Shown: positions 42,001 to 48,000 of the stretch, in pieces
How positions within the stretch are numbered: the stretch's first letter is position 1
Layout: each line of letters opens with the position of its first letter
DNA from: a virus
Reading direction: 5' to 3' (one strand)
IMG/VR virus record: IMGVR_UViG_3300010226_000002
Length of the DNA stretch: 64,000 nucleotides
Made by a program: the position numbers

Positions 42001-45000
42001 CTGATCGCCTTCTCACCGAACAACGCGGCGTCACCGCCCTTCTCCACTACGGTGACGCTCGACAATGTCAGCTATCAACTCATAGTGACATGGAATATTG
42101 CTGGCCAGCGCTGGTTTGCTGCATTGGTGGACCAATCCGGTACGGCGATATGGTCGGGCGCATTGGTGGGCTCTCCGCTCGGCTACGACATTCTGTTGGC
42201 ACCGGGACTATTCACGTCGAGCACTTTGCTTTATCGGGCGGATACCGGTAATTTTGAGGTTAGTTCGTGAGCAGATACTATTCCCTGGCGATCACTCCGA
42301 CTGGCAGCACGACGCCCTTTCGCACATATGCGTCTCATCCGAACAATATCTTCGACCCCGCGGCGTTGAACATCGAGTATGACGCGCTGATAGGTCCGTA
42401 TGGAATTCCGAGCGGTGCGTCAACTGTTACGGTGTATGGCATCCCGCTTCAGGATCTGACGCAGGCTCAGCAATTCGCGGGTATGACGCTGGAGCTAAAA
42501 GCGGGCATGCGCGCCGGCCTACCGCTGGTCAATCCGTCACAGGCTGGCACGATCCTCAAGGGAACGATATATCAGTCGTTCGGCAACTGGGAGGGCGTAG
42601 ACCAAACGCTCGACTTCGTGGTAATTCCGGGTATCTACACAGTCGACAATCCAGGCAACATCCTGCTCGACTGGAGCGCCGGCATGTCTCTCGCGGACGC
42701 ACTGAAGCAGACGTTTTCCGTAGCGTACCCTGGGTTTCCGGTGTCGATGAACATCGGCGGTGATTTCGCGCAAAGCCACGACGAGCCACATATTTGTGGG
42801 ACGTTGGATCAACTGGCTCAGGTCGTCGGCGATATCACCGAAGGCGTGTTTGACAATCGCGTGACGATCGGAATTCAGGCTGGCGAAATTGTTGTCTACG
42901 ACAGCACTTATAAGCCGGGTGCAGTCCAATTGAATTTCAATGATTTCGTCGGCCAGCCGACGTGGATTGGCGTGAACACGATTCAGACGAAGATGGTCGC
43001 GCGCGCCGATCTTCGGATGGGCGGTATCGTGAAGATGCCGGAGGGACTGCAAAACGCGCCCGGCTATATCAAGACGACTGCGGCGTCCTATCCATCAAGT
43101 ATCAAGTATCAAGCGACGTTCCAGAACAATTTCATCGTCCAGGAATTGCGTCAGATCGGAAACTTCCGGTCAGCGGACGCGGCGCAATGGTCAACGATAG
43201 CGAACTGCATCGTCCTTCCGAGCTAAACGATGTCAGAAAATTACGCGAAACTTTGGGTTCAGCGAAGCGCCAACCAGACCGCGATTAACCGCGCCCAACA
43301 GGCTATCGAGAATCTCGGTCGTGCGTTGCCTTGCCGGGTTGTTAAGGTCACTGGTTCGATTGTCACCGTGGCCTTCGAGGTCAATGCTTCCCCGTACACT
43401 CTGCCGAACATCACCATCCCAAAGGCCGAGAGCCCGTGGATAAGGATGCCGACACAGGTTGGCGACAAGGGCGTCACGATGCCCGCGGACGCTTATCTTG
43501 GGGGTGTTTCGGGGTTGGGAGGTGGCGTTGCAACGCTGACGCGTCCGGGCAATCTAAGTGCTCTAGTTTTTGTCCCGATCAGCAACTCAGGTTCCGGTCC
43601 CGATGACCCGAACGCTGCGCAGATTGAAGGCCCGAACGGAGCAATCGTCCGTACTTCCGATGGGGTATCTTCGGCAGTTGTCAACGAAACGGGCGTCACC
43701 CTGACATTTGGAACCACGTCACTGGTCGTCAATGCGGCTGGAATTACGATGACCTACGGTACGCAGACCATCGTTCTTAACGGGTCTGGCCTGCAGATCA
43801 ACGGCGAGAGCTACGAGAACCACACGCACGGCTATTTCCCGGGAACTGGAGCCAAGGTTCAAACCGATCCGCCGATCAACTAGCGGCGCGTGTAGGAACC
43901 CTTCAGCCCATCGTACCGGTCCTGCCACACGCTGAATTTGTGCATGTAATCGACAGTGCCGTTGCTCCAATGCACCGTGATATAGCAGTCGATGCGATAC
44001 AGGCCCGGGTAATACTCATAGGCCGGTGTCCCGGCTGCCGTTTCTATCGACTTGATCCGGGCGGCATTCGGTCCGAGCTCCAGTAAATATGGGATGTTCG
44101 CCATCTCCATGTCATGCGCGAGCGGTGCCTGACAGTTTTGCGGTATGCCGGCCAGGTCTGCTGCATTGGCTCCGGATGAAATCATAGCGAGCAGCATCAT
44201 TAGTTTTCGCATTATTCGCTTTCCTTTTTAAGTACCCCGAAGTCGTCGGGATTGAACCGCGGACATACGTCGCAGTGTCGCGCTACGCCTTCCGCCTGAA
44301 TCTGGTTGGGTATGGACGCAGGATGCCCGCGCTGAGGTCGAAACCATTGCAGCATATGCCTGCAAGGGAAGACAAACGCCCCCTCCTCTGACGCAGCCTC
44401 GTAGTGCCTGAAATATGGCGCCACGTGGTCGAACGTCCGGCACGGTGCCAACGGATTGAATGGGTCATCGACCATCCTGAAACAGTGCGCCCGGTAGTCT
44501 CGAGCAGCGCAAGAGTCGGCAAAGCACTTGAGCACCGCTTCAAGTTCGAATGCGGGCTCCATTTCTCCGATAACCATGCGCCCCTGCGCATAGAAGTGAG
44601 TACCTCGCCAGCCCCGCACGTAATGGATCAGATCCATAGCCTGAGTGGCGCCGTCAAACGTCGCAGAAAATCCCGCCACATGAATCTTAAGAGTCTCCAG
44701 GTCTCGCTCTGCGAATAGCGGAGCGCGCCTGGCCACTTCCATGGCCCATGGTAGCGCCTCGGATCGACTTCGCAGGAATAGAACGAGGACCAGATAGTCG
44801 CGGGACATTTTTTGCAGGTTGTCGTGCGCGAAGAAGCTCGGCGGGTAGGTCACTTGATTTTCTTTTTTAGCAACGCCTCGATCACGCTGATTCTGTTCAG
44901 GATTTGACGCGAATGGTCTGCGTCACCGCTAAACGATTGTCGAACGCGCTCAATGATTTCGGCGTTGATTGATTTGCTGGATTCCTCAGACGCAATTTGA

Positions 45001-48000
45001 AGCTGGGCATGCAGTTCTTTGGGGATGCGCAAGGTAATTCTGGTGTAGCGGTCATCTTCCGTCATTCAGTGTCACCGTTTTCGTGTCAATAATTGACACT
45101 ATACTCGTGTCGCCCCATACTAGTTAGACACCAAAACAGTGTCTACATGAAATCGTGGAAAACAAGATTTGCACCAGGTGCGGCCAACTGAAGCCGTTAT
45201 CGATGTTCACTCGTCGGAAAGATAGGCCGTGCGGCTATGTGGCACGCTGCAAGCAGTGTGCATCGAAAGAGAGTCGGGCGTGGGCCGTCGAAAATCGAAC
45301 AAAAGAGCAATTAGCGGGGCAACGCAAGGCGCACCGGCAGAAACGCCCAGATCTTGTCAGGACTGCTGTAGAGAGATATCTCGGTAGCCACCCCGACTAT
45401 CGAAAGACTAGCGCTGCTCGGATCGCGGCATGGCGCAAAGAAAACCCAGGTCTCGCTAAGCGAGCTACGTACAACTGGTTGACGAAGCATGAGGAGGCCC
45501 AGCGGTACTACACGCAAAATTATCGGGCAAAGAAGAGGAGCAACGGCGGCCAACTAAGCCGGGGGCTCGAGAATGTCCTCATGCTCGAACAGGGTTGCCG
45601 GTGCCCTTATTGCTATTCTGATCTGAAGTTAAGCGGGTATGACCTAGACCACTACATCCCAGTAGATCTTGGTGGTCCAAACGAGGATTGGAATATCCAG
45701 CTTGCGTGCCCGCCATGCAACAAAAAGAAGTCAAACAAACATCCCCTAGAGTTCATAGGCCTTGAGGTACAGGATGCGCACTTATGGAAGAGTTACCAAC
45801 GCGGACGGTTCAAAGACGTGGGTGACGGTCGAGACTGACAGCAACGGCTACTCTGACAATTGCTATTTAACCACTCTCGCGCAATGCCTCAAGCTGAATC
45901 TTGGCGAGAGTCCGATCTACGCGAACTACGGCATTCCTCAGTACCAGACGATCGTCACGCAGGTTCTGCCCGACTACTACGTTATGCAGACGCAGACGCA
46001 GTTTTCCCAGTACTTCGCATCGCTCACCATCAGTCGCGTGCAGGGTTCTTTCCCGCCCGTCTACAACGTGAACGCCGTGTGCCATAGCGGCGCCATCATC
46101 AATTCCACCATCGCGACATGACCACATCTTCCACGTCTATCCCAGTGGTGATGACCACGTCCGGCCCGCAACCAACTCCGGTTGCAACGTTGTATGACAA
46201 TCTGATCACGTATGTAGCGAACACGGTTCCGGGATATACGGCCAACCTTCCGGGTTCTCTGATCGACGACGTCGCCGGCACGGATACCGGTGCCCTTGTA
46301 GCTATTGATCAAGCGCGGGTCGACGCAATAAATAGTGTTACCCCCTACGGAGCGAACGCTTTCATTCTGGCGCAGCTCGGCGCGCAGTTCGGGATTCCTC
46401 AAGGCATAGGCGCGAACGGAAGCGTTTTCGTGCAATTCTCCGGTCCTGCAGGATACGTTTTTCCGAGAGGCTTCGTCGTTGGTGACGGCACTAACCAGTA
46501 TGCGCTTCAGGACGGCGGTGTCATAGAAACGGGCGGTACTAGCCCGCAACTGTATGCCGTCGCCACGACGAGCGGAACGTTCGCCATCCCGGCTGACACC
46601 GTCAATCAGCTCGTGACGTCGGTTCCTAGCGCCTACGCCGTCACCGTCACCAATCCCGAGGCAGGCACGTCAGCAACGTCGGCGGAGAGCGCGCAAGATT
46701 ACCGCGCTCGGGTCCTGCAAGCTGGCATCGTGGCCTCTACTGGAACGCCTGCATATGTAAAGACCCTGCTTGAAAAGGTTACTGGCGTTCAGGCTCGCCT
46801 AGTCTCGATCAATCAACTATCTGGCGGATGGCAAATCGTCTGCGGCGGCGGGGATGCTTTTTCGGTTGCTGCGGCAATCCTGCAAAGCGTTCCGGATATC
46901 GCCGTTCTTCAGGGATCACAGCTCGCCGTCACAGCCATGACGGCCGCAAATCCGGTTGTTATCACGACGAATTTGACTCATGGCTATCAGGTCGGGCAGA
47001 CGGTCACGGTCACAGGCGCTACCCCCGGTGCGTACAACCTGACATACACGGTCGCATCGGTCACGGCAACGACGATCACGACGACGACCAATGGGTCAGG
47101 ATTCGGCGCGTACAGTAGCGGAGCAAAGCTGGCGCCCAACCCACGGAACATCTCCGTTTCCTTGTTCCAGAATCCTGACACGTACTCGGTCACGTTCGTC
47201 AATCCGCCGCAGCAGATAGTAACAGTCGCTGTCACATGGAATACAACATTACCGAGTTTTACGGCCGGCACATCGGTCGCGCAGCTTGCAGCCCCCGCGA
47301 TACAGTCGTACATCAACAGCATTTATGTGGGCCAGCCAATTAACATCCTCGAGATGCAGTCCGCGTTTCAAAACGCGGTCTCGTCAGTTATTGCGCCGCA
47401 GAACGTGACGACGCTTGAGTTCGTGGTGACGATTAACGGAGTGACTGCAAGTCCAGCGGCAGGCACAAGCATAGTCCCGAGCGATCCCGAATCGTATTTC
47501 TCGACTTCTTCGGCCGGCGTCACTATCACCCAGGGTTAAGCATGCAGATCGAATCGTTCTCGACTCTGCCTCTTCAGCAGACAATCCCGAGCTACCTCTA
47601 CAAAGAGTATTCCGACGATGAGAACCTGCAAGCCTTCGTCGATTCGTATAACTCGCTAACGCAAGGGTATCTCGATTGGTTCAGCAACACCCCTCTCGGT
47701 CTTTATACGTCTCCCGGAGTATCTGGACCTCTGCTTGACTGGATTGGGCTCGGAGTCTACAACATTCCGAGGCCGGTTTTATCAAACCAGACAAGTTTTA
47801 ATCAGGCTGGATACAATTCCGCTCCATACAACGATTACCCGTTCCCTTACGACGGCCTTGCCCGATCGTCGTCTGGGGCATCATCTCTTGCATCCGACGA
47901 CATTTATAAGCGGATGATGACCTGGAATCTGTACCGCGGCGACGGACAGATGTTCACGATAGGGTGGCTCAAGAATCGTGTTAATCGCTTCATCAATGGG

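What the first reader, a model, noticed from the sequence alone, without database searches (positions are those of the whole stretch)
43880..45838. Accessory cassette wedged into the baseplate module: RHH regulator, unknown Cys-rich 213-aa protein, secreted 110-aa protein, plus a divergent HNH
About 1.9 kb of opposite-strand and foreign-looking DNA interrupts the late operon between the spike gene (ends 43883) and the gp25-like wedge gene (starts 45774). By eye it is more AT-rich than its flanks; this was not computed.

Three minus-strand genes are translationally coupled (4-nt start/stop overlap at 44850-44853, TAATG at 44210-44214):
- An Arc/CopG-type ribbon-helix-helix protein.
- A 213-aa protein with no motif I can name. 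It has clustered Cys/His (CFADSC..HC, CRTFDH, CRH, HCDVC).
- A 110-aa protein with a clear Sec signal peptide.

The last stop shares CTAG with the spike gene stop, so there is no spacer or terminator. The control region (45066-45154) holds a perfect 17-bp palindrome, gtgtcaataattgacac, over a TTGACA box, plus further GTGTC/GACAC pentamers. This is typical of RHH autoregulation.

An HNH gene is transcribed divergently, and its 3' end overlaps the wedge gene start by 65 nt. RHH-first, tightly coupled operons are the grammar of toxin-antitoxin, abortive-infection or superinfection-exclusion modules. Here the effector family is unknown and has an exported partner.
Basis: partly seen in the sequence, partly recalled or inferred. 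Interest (0 to 1): 0.75.

Follow-up and report, generated by a model that had tools for sequence, protein, structure and literature searches.

The report
Prophage accessory operon with HNH insertion
Two opposite-strand genes inside this temperate phage's tail operon are long-standing residents from an uncharacterised family that usually sits just behind prophage repressor genes, while the small regulator and the HNH nuclease beside them are a recent 0.9-kb insertion; it is not a toxin-antitoxin cassette.

Summary
All four ORFs, their overlaps, the palindrome and the HNH/wedge overlap are real. The locus is two things of different age.

1. **Old residents.** The 213-aa gene (P213, phrog_16260) and the gene after it occupy this exact spike|wedge slot, on the opposite strand, in 53 of 53 related Burkholderiaceae phage loci. 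Both have native GC and dN/dS of about 0.05-0.14.

2. **Recent insertion.** The RHH, control region and HNH (44854-45773, 920 bp) occur in 0 of 53 relatives. This stretch has the lowest GC of any same-size stretch in the window. It replaced about 30 nt and fused the RHH stop to a new P213 start. The HNH is one of at least five in the window.

P213 belongs to a large unnamed family (301 clusters). It has four invariant Cys and a confident model (pLDDT 91.5) with no PDB or BFVD match. In unrelated phages it is usually the second gene behind a CI/LexA-type or Arc-type repressor. It is followed by non-homologous exported or membrane proteins, or by nothing.

The toxin-antitoxin reading is rejected. 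The best reading is a lysogen-expressed accessory operon of the lambda cI-rexAB / P22 immI kind. Its biochemical function is unknown; phage exclusion is a plausible guess.

The parts
43880..44212 (-). P110: a 110-aa exported protein. It has a predicted Sec signal peptide and two invariant Cys (C27, C76). It is one of at least 8 non-homologous exported or membrane cargo families found in the slot after P213.
   Evidence: - ORF.
- 36 Paraburkholderia homologues.
- No Pfam hit in any of the 36 aligned sequences.
- AF2 pLDDT 84.9, a helix on a 5-stranded sheet.
- No significant PDB match (best is a cystatin, E 0.05, TM 0.44).
- dN/dS 0.07-0.12.
- Slot survey.
44212..44853 (-). P213: a 213-aa cytoplasmic protein with four invariant Cys (phrog_16260). 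It is an uncharacterised temperate-phage family with a novel fold, resident in this spike|wedge slot throughout the lineage.
   Evidence: - phrog_16260, 2.2e-34, full length.
- No Pfam, PADLOC, NCBIfam or PDB-sequence hit.
- 301 representative clusters.
- Invariant C110, C124, P163, C164, C197, P198.
- AF2 pLDDT 91.5, pTM 0.86.
- No Foldseek hit below E 0.09.
- Same slot in 53 of 53 loci.
- dN/dS 0.05-0.14.
44850..45065 (-). A 71-aa Arc/Mnt-type ribbon-helix-helix repressor. Its stop overlaps the new GTG start of P213. It is specific to this window.
   Evidence: - Pfam Arc, 1.1e-7.
- PHROG Arc-like repressor families.
- Absent from 53 relatives.
- GC 0.477.
- Nearest annotated relatives are Arc-like proteins of Paracoccus and Acetobacter phages.
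45069..45145 (.). Control region.
- An array of GTGTC/GACAC half-sites at 45069, 45083, 45095, 45107, 45127 and 45139.
- It includes the perfect palindrome 45083-45099 and the inverted repeat GACAC-N7-GTGTC at 45127-45143.
- Plus-strand promoter: TTGACA (45093) -17- CATACT (to 45121), towards the HNH.
- Minus-strand promoter: TAGACA (45145) -17- TAGTAT (to 45117), towards the RHH operon.
- The two -10 hexamers abut (45116-45121 and 45117-45122).
   Evidence: - Promoters.
- Pentamer clustering and palindrome.
- Motif found nowhere else in the window.
45155..45838 (+). A free-standing HNH (endonuclease VII-like) homing-type endonuclease, 227 aa. Its last 22 codons read into the wedge gene.
   Evidence: - Pfam HNH, 2.3e-9.
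- phrog_1035, 2.4e-27.
- 26-32 % identical to free-standing HNH genes of Ralstonia, Mycobacterium, Streptomyces and Bacillus phages.
- Absent from 53 relatives.
- At least four other HNH genes in the window.
44854..45773 (.). The window-specific 920-bp insertion (RHH + control region + HNH). It replaces the roughly 30-nt P213-wedge spacer of relatives, together with the first 2-3 codons of P213.
   Evidence: - Alignment A3 with L022, L017 and L020.
- GC 0.512, the lowest 0.1 % of 920-bp windows.
43230..43883 (+). Left flank: the baseplate spike gene (217 aa). It is convergent with P110 and the two stops overlap.
   Evidence: - ORF.
- 58-97 % identical homologues next to P213 in all relatives.
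- Contiguous with the wedge gene in Shewanella phage QDWS.
45774..46121 (+). Right flank: the 115-aa wedge gene (phrog_7986), followed by the baseplate-J gene (46118-47539).

Best explanation
The locus is a composite of two layers.

**Layer 1 (old; shown).** P213 and a variable downstream gene, here P110, form an accessory ('moron') unit transcribed against the Mu-like baseplate operon. It has been inherited with this Burkholderiaceae temperate-phage lineage. P213 belongs to a large, unnamed family of temperate-phage proteins. Elsewhere it is typically the second gene of an operon led by the prophage's CI/LexA-type repressor or by an Arc/Mnt-type RHH. This is the position that rexAB holds behind lambda cI (established knowledge).

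**Layer 2 (recent; shown).** A 920-bp, low-GC insertion placed an Arc/Mnt-type RHH gene directly in front of P213, with the stop and start fused as GTGA. It also placed a divergent free-standing HNH endonuclease gene on the other side.

**How it most likely works (inferred).**
- The RHH binds the 12-bp-spaced GTGTC/GACAC array that covers both overlapping promoters.
- Binding would autoregulate the RHH-P213-P110 transcript at a low steady level in the lysogen. It would also keep the HNH promoter shut, since the palindrome sits on its -35.
- P213 is a cytoplasmic protein with an N-terminal ferredoxin-like half and a four-Cys (probably Zn or Fe-S) centre. It acts on its own and needs neither the RHH nor the exported protein.
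- Its most likely role is a lysogen-benefiting one, above all interference with superinfecting phages. Its biochemical activity is unknown.
- P110 and its alternatives are independent envelope-acting cargo, of the superinfection-exclusion or lysogenic-conversion type, placed in a recombination-prone slot.
For: **Residency**
- P213 lies between the spike and wedge genes, on the opposite strand, in 53 of 53 related loci.
- Its GC and GC3 are native.
- It is under strong purifying selection.

**Insertion**
- The RHH and HNH are present in 0 of 53 relatives.
- The insertion boundaries are sharp, and a new GTG start was created.
- The insert's GC is in the lowest 0.1 %.
- At least five HNH genes lie in the window.

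**Family context**
- Of 19 distinct upstream neighbours of distant members, 7 are HTH+Peptidase_S24, 4 are Arc, 1 is Phage_CI_repr and at least one more is HTH-only.
- In the Klebsiella phage, an Arc-like RHH is coupled to the homologue and lies divergent from arc-ant (membership 99.4 %).
- In the Bordetella phages, the homologue overlaps the end of the CI-S24 gene (100 %).

**Autonomy**
- There is no partner in L028, L031, L033 and L056.
- At least 8 unrelated exported or membrane families occupy the downstream slot.
- Partner type does not track the spike tip or P213 identity.

**Regulation**
- Both promoters and the unique half-site array lie in 45069-45145.

**Temperate lifestyle**
- The window carries a CI-S24 repressor, an integrase and a Q-like protein.
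Against: - There is no expression data and no phenotype.
- P213 has no hit to any known defence model (PADLOC) and no structural analogue. 'Defence' rests on genomic position only.
- Some contexts are not repressor-led. Examples are after Mor and before the endolysin in a Mu-like Mannheimia prophage, after a Q-like gene in a lambdoid contig, and after a KilA-N protein.
- In RHH-less relatives, no sigma-70-like promoter was found for P213. Its expression there is unexplained.
- B. avium lysogens that carry a CI-P213 operon are reported to remain sensitive to the same phages (PMC10269795). P213 therefore does not give homo-immunity there.
- The Cys4 centre is inferred from conservation.
Confidence: 0.5

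Rival explanations
1. One reading: a type II toxin-antitoxin or abortive-infection module. The RHH is the antitoxin and autoregulator, P213 is the toxin or effector, and P110 is an exported helper.
For: - The operon is RHH-first and translationally coupled, with an operator array.
- The RHH also hits the HicB and FitA-like RHH antitoxin families weakly.
- Arc-type RHH genes precede P213 homologues in three other unrelated contexts: L016, L078 and L109/110.
Against: - The RHH is absent from all 53 close relatives, where P213 stands with no upstream gene (about 30 nt to the divergent wedge gene).
- Four loci have no downstream gene either. A toxin could not persist unprotected under purifying selection.
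- Most regulated homologues sit behind CI/LexA-type repressors with an S24 domain, which are not antitoxins.
- P213 matches no known toxin or defence family.
Confidence: 0.06
2. P213 is a component of the lysis-lysogeny decision rather than a defence gene. It would be a sensor, or a modulator of repressor activity, whose Cys cluster senses redox state or metal. This would explain why it is welded to repressor genes.
For: - It is tightly coupled, often overlapping, with CI-S24 or Mnt-like repressors in many unrelated phages.
- It sits after Mor or Q-like regulators in others.
- It has four invariant Cys plus a near-invariant His.
- B. avium phages with CI-P213 form lysogens that lack superinfection immunity (PMC10269795).
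Against: - In 53 Burkholderiaceae loci P213 is far from the immunity region. In this window the CI-S24 gene is at 9890-10732, 34 kb away.
- P213 is absent from the related Shewanella phage QDWS, so it is not an essential switch component.
- No DNA-binding or protease motif was found.
Confidence: 0.2
3. P213 and the downstream exported or membrane protein form a functional two-part system. A cytoplasmic factor would act with a variable envelope effector, in the style of RexA/RexB.
For: - An exported, lipoprotein or TM protein follows P213 in about 49 of 53 lineage loci, usually with the start overlapping the P213 stop.
- The same is seen in at least 9 unrelated contexts.
- The recurrence of this class of protein is striking.
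Against: - The partners are non-homologous: at least 8 families, one of them LprI-like.
- They range from 32-aa TM peptides to 247-aa lipoproteins.
- They are absent in four loci.
- They swap independently of P213 identity.
- No known two-component system tolerates such unrelated partners.
Confidence: 0.12
4. The RHH belongs to the HNH, not to P213. The 920-bp insert would be a self-contained mobile homing cassette whose RHH silences the nuclease. Its fusion to P213 would be an accident of the insertion site.
For: - The RHH and HNH arrived together, share low GC and share one control region. The best palindrome lies on the HNH -35.
- The phage carries at least five HNH genes.
Against: - No second copy of this RHH-HNH pair was found in IMG/VR or in the metagenomes. 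Mobility as a pair is therefore unshown.
- Arc-type RHH genes precede P213 homologues independently elsewhere.
- The exact GTGA fusion preserves P213 translation.
- This rival concerns only the origin of the RHH and is compatible with the main explanation.
Confidence: 0.3
5. P213 is a baseplate or tail assembly factor.
For: - It is conserved at the spike|wedge position in 53 of 53 related loci.
- Homologues lie in two other slots of similar baseplate modules: L068/69/72/73 and the Klebsiella phage.
Against: - It is always on the strand opposite to the tail genes.
- It is absent from the equally related phage QDWS, whose baseplate genes are contiguous.
- Most distant members lie in immunity or early regions of lambdoid and Mu-like phages.
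- It matches no tail family.
Confidence: 0.03

Closest known systems
Lambda cI-rexA-rexB and similar lysogeny-operon cargo, such as BstA next to the BTP1 repressor locus (from established knowledge; not tested by homology here beyond the PDB fold search)
   Same: - It is an accessory gene placed directly behind, and co-transcribed with, the prophage maintenance repressor, so it is expected to be made in lysogens.
- A cytoplasmic protein is often followed by a membrane or exported one.
- It is dispensable for the phage: it is absent from the related phage QDWS.
   Different: - There is no sequence or fold similarity to any solved structure.
- In this window the leading regulator is a small RHH inside the tail operon, not the main CI, which lies at 9890-10732.
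- The downstream partner is interchangeable or absent.
- No exclusion phenotype is known.
The P22 immI region: mnt divergent from arc-ant, embedded in the late operon (established knowledge)
   Same: - An Arc/Mnt-family RHH repressor sits inside the late structural operon.
- Its promoters are divergent and overlapping, and the operator repeats cover both.
- The Klebsiella phage ST899-OXA48phi17.1 shows the full layout: an Mnt-like RHH followed by the P213 homologue, divergent from arc-ant.
   Different: - In this window the divergent gene is an HNH endonuclease, not an antirepressor.
- P22 has no P213-like gene after mnt.
It is only a lead.
Free-standing HNH homing endonucleases of phages ('endonuclease VII / HNH', phrog_1035, PF01844)
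   Same: - The domain content is the same: an N-terminal Cys-rich region plus the HNH motif with CxxC pairs.
- It lies intergenically between conserved genes.
- It is absent from close relatives.
- The genome holds multiple copies.
   Different: - It is paired with a divergent RHH whose operator overlaps the HNH promoter.
- Its 3' end runs 65 nt into the wedge gene.
- Neither cleavage activity nor homing was tested.
Type II toxin-antitoxin operons with an RHH antitoxin (CopG/Arc/FitA/HicB-like)
   Same: - The RHH comes first.
- The start and stop overlap by 4 nt.
- There is a palindromic operator array.
   Different: - The RHH-P213 pairing is not conserved (0 of 53 relatives).
- P213 exists alone.
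- P213 is not in any toxin family.

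Membership tests
phrog_16260 (phage protein family of unknown function) | A full-length match to the family profile | tested here: met
   E 2.2e-34; residues 10-205 match profile positions 14-209 of 213.
Arc/Mnt ribbon-helix-helix repressors (Pfam PF03869) | The RHH domain scores above the Pfam gathering score | tested here: met
   32 bits against a cut-off of 20.4, E 1.1e-7. Several PHROG Arc-like repressor families also match.
Arc/Mnt ribbon-helix-helix repressors (Pfam PF03869) | Repeated or inverted operator half-sites at its own promoter | tested here: met
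   Six GTGTC/GACAC half-sites with 12-bp spacing cover both promoters. The cluster is unique in the 64 kb. Actual binding was not tested.
HNH endonucleases (PF01844 / phrog_1035) | The HNH domain scores above the gathering score, with intact Cys pairs and His/Asn residues | tested here: met
   37.7 bits against 21.4. The motif CPYC...DLDHYIP...N...CPPCN was read from the translation. Catalysis was not tested.
Free-standing homing endonuclease (mobile) | Present in some closely related genomes and absent from others, at an intergenic site | tested here: met
   Absent from 53 of 53 relatives, with sharp boundaries. GC is shifted. Homing itself cannot be tested here.
Type II toxin-antitoxin system | The antitoxin and toxin genes are conserved as a pair | tested here: not met
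   The RHH is absent from all 53 loci that carry P213.
Type II toxin-antitoxin system | The toxin belongs to a recognised toxin family, or is toxic alone | tested here: not met
   No Pfam, PADLOC or NCBIfam hit. P213 persists alone under purifying selection. Toxicity itself cannot be tested here.
Known anti-phage defence systems (PADLOC-DB v2) | A match of P213, P110 or the RHH to any defence-protein model | tested here: not met
   No hits at E <= 0.1. Only generic HNH hits were found for the nuclease.
Lysogeny-operon cargo (cI-rexAB-like arrangement) | The gene lies immediately downstream of, and on the same strand as, a prophage repressor gene | tested here: met
   - Family level: about 13 of 19 distinct upstream neighbours are repressor-type. 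7 are HTH+S24, 4 are Arc, 1 is CI_repr and at least one more is HTH-only.
- This window: P213 lies behind an Arc-type RHH.
Lysogeny-operon cargo (cI-rexAB-like arrangement) | Expression in lysogens and an exclusion or defence phenotype | not testable with these tools
   No transcript or phenotype data exist. The only relevant paper (PMC10269795) does not address the gene.
RexA/RexB homology | Sequence or fold similarity to the solved structures | tested here: not met
   No PDB sequence hit at E <= 10. No Foldseek hit below E 0.16.
P22 immI-type secondary immunity region | An antirepressor gene under control of the RHH repressor(s) | tested here: not met
   In this window the divergent gene is an HNH. 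An arc-ant pair is present only in the Klebsiella phage locus L016.
Baseplate / tail assembly proteins | Co-oriented with the tail genes and restricted to tail modules | tested here: not met
   It is on the opposite strand in every locus. Homologues lie in immunity, early and Mu middle regions. It is absent from phage QDWS.
Sec-exported protein (P110) | An N-terminal signal peptide with an AXA cleavage site | tested here: inconclusive
   Judged by eye: a basic n-region, a hydrophobic core, then ANA|AD. Hydrophobic N-termini recur in the homologues surveyed, and A15 and A17 are (near-)invariant in the 36-sequence alignment. AF2 pLDDT is low for residues 1-17. No signal-peptide predictor was available.
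DUF2790 (a UniRef label on one P110 homologue) | A match to the Pfam model | tested here: not met
   None of the 36 aligned sequences matches any Pfam family at E <= 0.1.

The most novel reading that the evidence does not exclude
The P213 family (phrog_16260; at least 300 clusters at 50 % identity across Burkholderiaceae, Bordetella, Klebsiella and Pasteurellaceae phages) would be a new, single-gene, prophage-encoded anti-phage or superinfection-exclusion protein. It would have a previously unseen four-Cys metal-binding fold and be carried in repressor-led lysogeny operons. The slot behind it would be a diversifying cassette of envelope-acting exclusion proteins. Together they would form a widespread two-layer (cytoplasm plus envelope) protection locus that current defence catalogues miss.
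Probability: 0.3. Interest if true: 0.7.

Novelty: new variant of a known kind. Interest (0 to 1): 0.5.

Why it matters
- **A family to test.** Genes co-transcribed with prophage repressors have repeatedly turned out to be defence or exclusion functions, such as rexAB, sieB and BstA. P213 is a large, unnamed family with a confident but unmatched fold that occupies exactly this niche in many temperate phages, including those of Klebsiella and the Pasteurellaceae. It is a concrete, cheap-to-test candidate for a new prophage-encoded function.

- **A recent evolutionary event.** A homing-type HNH plus an Arc-like repressor landed precisely at the 5' end of a resident moron and rewired its control. 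This shows how immI-like regulatory regions can be assembled inside tail operons.

- **A source of envelope cargo.** The variable slot after P213 holds at least eight unrelated exported or membrane proteins. It is a ready-made source of candidate exclusion or conversion factors acting on the cell envelope.

Tried and rejected
1. **Named families for P213.** Pfam was run on the protein and on 85 homologues; PADLOC, NCBIfam and a PDB sequence profile were also searched. Nothing was found.

2. **Fold search.** The pLDDT-91.5 model was searched against PDB and BFVD. Only generic ferredoxin-like (ACT, RAM, NikR C-terminal) similarity over about 75 residues appeared, at E >= 0.09 and TM about 0.2-0.3.

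3. **Late-gene activator idea.** It was prompted by the Mor-P212-endolysin and post-NinG/Q contexts. It was dropped because most contexts are repressor operons or reverse-strand tail inserts. There was no similarity to any solved structure, which should include the Q proteins.

4. **Lysis-cassette idea.** It was prompted by the small TM or signal-peptide genes downstream. It was rejected because co-transcription with repressors would be lethal.

5. **'Immunity to the spike tip' idea for the exported partner.** It was rejected because partner type does not co-vary with the spike C-terminal tip.

6. **Origin of the RHH-HNH insert.** There were no relatives in IMG/VR. Only HNH-motif matches were found in the metagenomes. 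The exact proteins are not on record.

7. **Other operator copies in the window.** None were found.

8. **Promoter for P213 in an RHH-less relative (L022).** No sigma-70-like site was found.

9. **Literature.** Only the B. avium phage paper mentions a carrier phage, and it assigns no function.

10. **Profile A1.** It was too diverse for locus fishing. The sub-alignments A2 and A4 were used instead.

Full report
**1. The observation**

The four ORFs exist as described.

| Gene | Coordinates | Strand | Length |
|---|---|---|---|
| P110 | 43880-44212 | - | 110 aa |
| P213 | 44212-44853 | - | 213 aa, GTG start |
| RHH | 44850-45065 | - | 71 aa |
| HNH | 45155-45838 | + | 227 aa |

- The overlaps are all present: GTGA at 44850-44853, TAATG at 44210-44214, CTAG with the spike stop at 43880-43883, and the 65-nt HNH/wedge overlap. 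The wedge ATG at 45774 was confirmed by alignment with relatives.
- The 71-aa protein is an Arc-type RHH, and the 227-aa protein is an HNH endonuclease.
- The 17-bp perfect palindrome lies at 45083-45099. On its own it is not unusual for 64 kb.
- It is, however, part of an array of six GTGTC/GACAC half-sites between 45069 and 45143. This is the only place in the window with four or more such pentamers in 90 bp, against a background of 1.28 per kb.
- The half-sites alternate in orientation every 12 bp.
- Two sigma-70-like promoters sit on the array. TTGACA-17-CATACT faces right towards the HNH. TAGACA-17-TAGTAT faces left towards the RHH. Their -10 hexamers abut.

The claim that the whole 1.9 kb is AT-rich and foreign is wrong.
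- P110+P213 have GC 0.571. The window mean is 0.566, and this value is at the 56th percentile of same-size windows.
- The 920 bp holding the RHH, the control region and the HNH have GC 0.512, in the lowest 0.1 %.

**2. Two layers of different age**

*What relatives show*
- The closest sequenced phage, Shewanella phage vB_Sb_QDWS, has spike, wedge and baseplate-J contiguous, with nothing between them.
- Homologues of P213 were fished from genomes and IMG/VR. This gave 53 Burkholderia/Paraburkholderia phage or prophage loci. In every one, the P213 homologue (54-94 % identical) lies in this same slot, between the spike and the 115-aa wedge gene, on the opposite strand.
- None of the 53 encodes a relative of the RHH or the HNH.

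*The junction*
- Aligning the junctions shows about 30 nt between the P213 ATG and the wedge ATG in the nearest relatives.
- The window has 920 bp there (44854-45773). The insertion also replaced the first two or three P213 codons with a new GTG that overlaps the RHH stop.
- P213 and P110 are under strong purifying selection relative to these relatives, with dN/dS of 0.05-0.14.

*The rest of the window*
- It is a temperate phage. It has a CI-type S24 repressor at 9890-10732, a Q-like protein, RecT, and an integrase at 62471-63547.
- It contains at least four more HNH genes.
- The HNH in the finding resembles free-standing 'endonuclease VII/HNH' genes scattered through unrelated phages.

*Conclusion.* P213 plus its downstream gene is an old resident of the lineage. 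The RHH and HNH are a recent insertion of the homing type.

**3. What P213 is**

- It has no Pfam, NCBIfam, PADLOC or PDB-sequence match, either alone or as a profile.
- It does match phrog_16260 over its full length. That family has no known function.
- An exhaustive HMMER search found 301 representative clusters. All are single-domain proteins of about 200-230 aa.
- Every source name is 'hypothetical protein'. Carriers include hundreds of Klebsiella contigs and more than 500 Pasteurellaceae contigs.
- In 85 diverse members, C110, C124, C164, C197, P163 and P198 are invariant. H177, Q184 and A187 are nearly so.
- AlphaFold2 gives a confident model (pLDDT 91.5, pTM 0.86). Foldseek finds nothing below E 0.09 in PDB or BFVD. 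It sees only a generic ferredoxin-like resemblance in the N-terminal half.
- I infer a cytoplasmic protein with a four-Cys metal centre (Zn or Fe-S). The geometry could not be checked.

**4. Genomic grammar of the family**

Distant members were located in about 27 further phage backbones.

*Upstream.* The gene immediately upstream, on the same strand and usually overlapping or within a few nucleotides, is repeatedly a repressor. The 19 distinct upstream neighbours break down as follows:

| Upstream neighbour | Count |
|---|---|
| HTH + Peptidase_S24 (CI/LexA type) | 7 |
| Arc-type RHH (including this window) | 4 |
| Phage_CI_repr | 1 |
| HTH only | at least 1 |

Two loci are especially informative.
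- In Bordetella avium phages, the homologue overlaps the end of the 369-aa CI-S24 gene (membership 100 %).
- In Klebsiella phage ST899-OXA48phi17.1, again inside the baseplate module, an Arc-family gene is coupled to the homologue. It lies divergent from an arc-ant pair (membership 99.4 %). This is a P22 immI-like layout.

Other contexts are not repressor-led:
- after Mor and before the endolysin in a Mu-like Mannheimia prophage;
- after a Q-like gene in a lambdoid contig;
- in a second reverse-strand slot of a similar baseplate module (L068/69/72/73).

This is the behaviour of a mobile accessory gene. It is most often placed where it will be transcribed with the lysogeny repressor, as rexAB is behind lambda cI (established knowledge).

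*Downstream.* The gene after P213 is almost always a small exported, lipoprotein or TM protein, but the proteins are unrelated to one another. In the Burkholderiaceae lineage the slot holds:
- the P110 family;
- a 61-aa two-TM family;
- at least six other families with signal peptides, lipoboxes or TM helices (32 to 171 aa);
- nothing at all in L028, L031, L033 and L056.

Distant loci show lipoproteins, signal-peptide proteins (one is LprI-like) and TM proteins.

Partner type follows neither P213 identity nor the spike tip. P110 itself models as a helix on a five-stranded sheet with one conserved Cys pair. It has no significant match.

**5. Mechanism**

*Shown*
- The arrangement of the genes.
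- The insertion.
- The promoter and operator geometry.
- The family's habitual linkage to repressors.
- P213's independence from any fixed partner.

*Inferred*
- The RHH occupies the half-site array. It thereby autoregulates the leftward RHH-P213-P110 transcript and shuts the rightward HNH promoter, whose -35 lies inside the palindrome.
- The operon is expressed in the lysogen.
- P213 provides a lysogen-benefiting function, most plausibly interference with incoming phages.
- P110 is separate envelope-acting cargo.

*Against.* There is no expression or phenotype evidence, no similarity to any known defence protein, some contexts that are not repressor-led, and no recognisable promoter in RHH-less relatives. 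B. avium lysogens that carry CI-P213 remain sensitive to their own phages (PMC10269795).

**6. Rivals**

- **Toxin-antitoxin.** This reading fails on its defining feature. The RHH-P213 pair is not conserved (0 of 53), and P213 persists alone.
- **Lysis-lysogeny modulator or sensor.** This role remains possible (about 0.2).
- **Obligate two-part system with the exported protein.** This is unlikely, given the unrelated, swappable or missing partners.
- **RHH as the HNH's own silencer.** The RHH may have arrived that way and become fused to P213 by accident. This cannot be excluded, because no second copy of the pair was found. It does not change the picture of P213.
- **Tail-assembly role.** This is excluded by strand, by absence from QDWS and by the non-tail contexts.

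**7. Novelty and score**

The kinds of thing here are all known: a moron operon in a late operon, an Arc/Mnt-type control region, and a homing HNH.

What is new is the P213 family itself. It is widespread, unnamed and of unmatched fold. It is habitually welded to prophage repressors and followed by a diversifying slot for envelope proteins. That makes it a good, testable candidate for a new prophage-encoded function, but nothing here demonstrates one.

- Interest: 0.5.
- Most novel reading not excluded: a new single-gene prophage defence family. Probability about 0.3; interest 0.7 if true.

Noticed in passing
window 5672-6169 (-), 14162-15106 (+), 21227-21700 (+), 59432-60082 (+), plus 45155-45838 (+): The window holds at least five separate HNH endonuclease genes from different PHROG families. 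Two of them (14162-15106 and 59432-60082) share phrog_374/3377. The genome is heavily colonised by homing-type nucleases.
   Followed up: partly
window 1223-2317 (-): A TnpB/IS605 OrfB-like protein with a Cas12f1-like TNB domain (PF07282, 8.6e-24; PF01385) lies next to RecT (3219-4229) near the left end of the phage.
   Followed up: no
window 9890-10732 (-), 19814-20392 (+), 62471-63547 (-): The phage's own CI-type Peptidase_S24 repressor, a Q-like antiterminator and an integrase are present. The phage is therefore temperate. In this phage, P213 is 34 kb away from the main repressor.
   Followed up: partly
window 51600-52667 (+), 52674-53906 (-), 56728-57978 (+): An O-antigen acetyltransferase-like gene and two GDSL-lipase-domain proteins lie downstream of the tail fibre genes. 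This is probably a lysogenic-conversion or tailspike region. Similar Acyl_transf_3 and GDSL genes flank the B. cepacia prophage loci L003-L005.
   Followed up: no
L017 2071-3612, L008 4351-5562, L009 4097-5578, L031 6770-7567 (all on the tail-gene strand): Several relatives carry an extra 265-513-aa Ala/Thr/Gly-rich, fibre-like protein between the wedge and baseplate-J genes. It has a hydrophobic N-terminus. It is absent from this window.
   Followed up: partly
L068, L069, L072, L073 (IMG/VR contigs): P213 homologues lie in a different reverse-strand slot of a similar baseplate module. They sit between a 103-aa protein and the 318-aa hub. This points to independent insertion into tail operons.
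   Followed up: no
L109 7548-7895 and L110 1814-2155: Two near-identical RHH-P213 loci carry different downstream signal-peptide proteins behind the same signal sequence. One is a LprI (lysozyme inhibitor) family member, 1.2e-12. This is cassette swapping behind a conserved leader.
   Followed up: partly
L002 (Bordetella phage vB_BaM-IFTN2, OM293951) 3838-5627: The P213 homologue is annotated 'prophage repressor' in one record and 'hypothetical protein' in its sisters. The annotation probably spilled over from the adjacent CI-S24 gene. These phages are reported to form lysogens without superinfection immunity (PMC10269795).
   Followed up: partly
spike C-termini in window 43730-43880 and in loci L003-L060: The spike proteins end in several distinct tip types. 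All carry an HxH motif (for example HTHGYFPG... or HYHPGVQTG...). The tip types are shuffled among otherwise similar phages, independently of P213 and of the partner gene.
   Followed up: partly
L006 and L007 (Paraburkholderia acidisoli CP046916, 573882-586526 and 637509-650153): One replicon carries two copies of this prophage type about 64 kb apart, with identical P213 genes. In one copy (L006) the hub gene appears disrupted or split.
   Followed up: no
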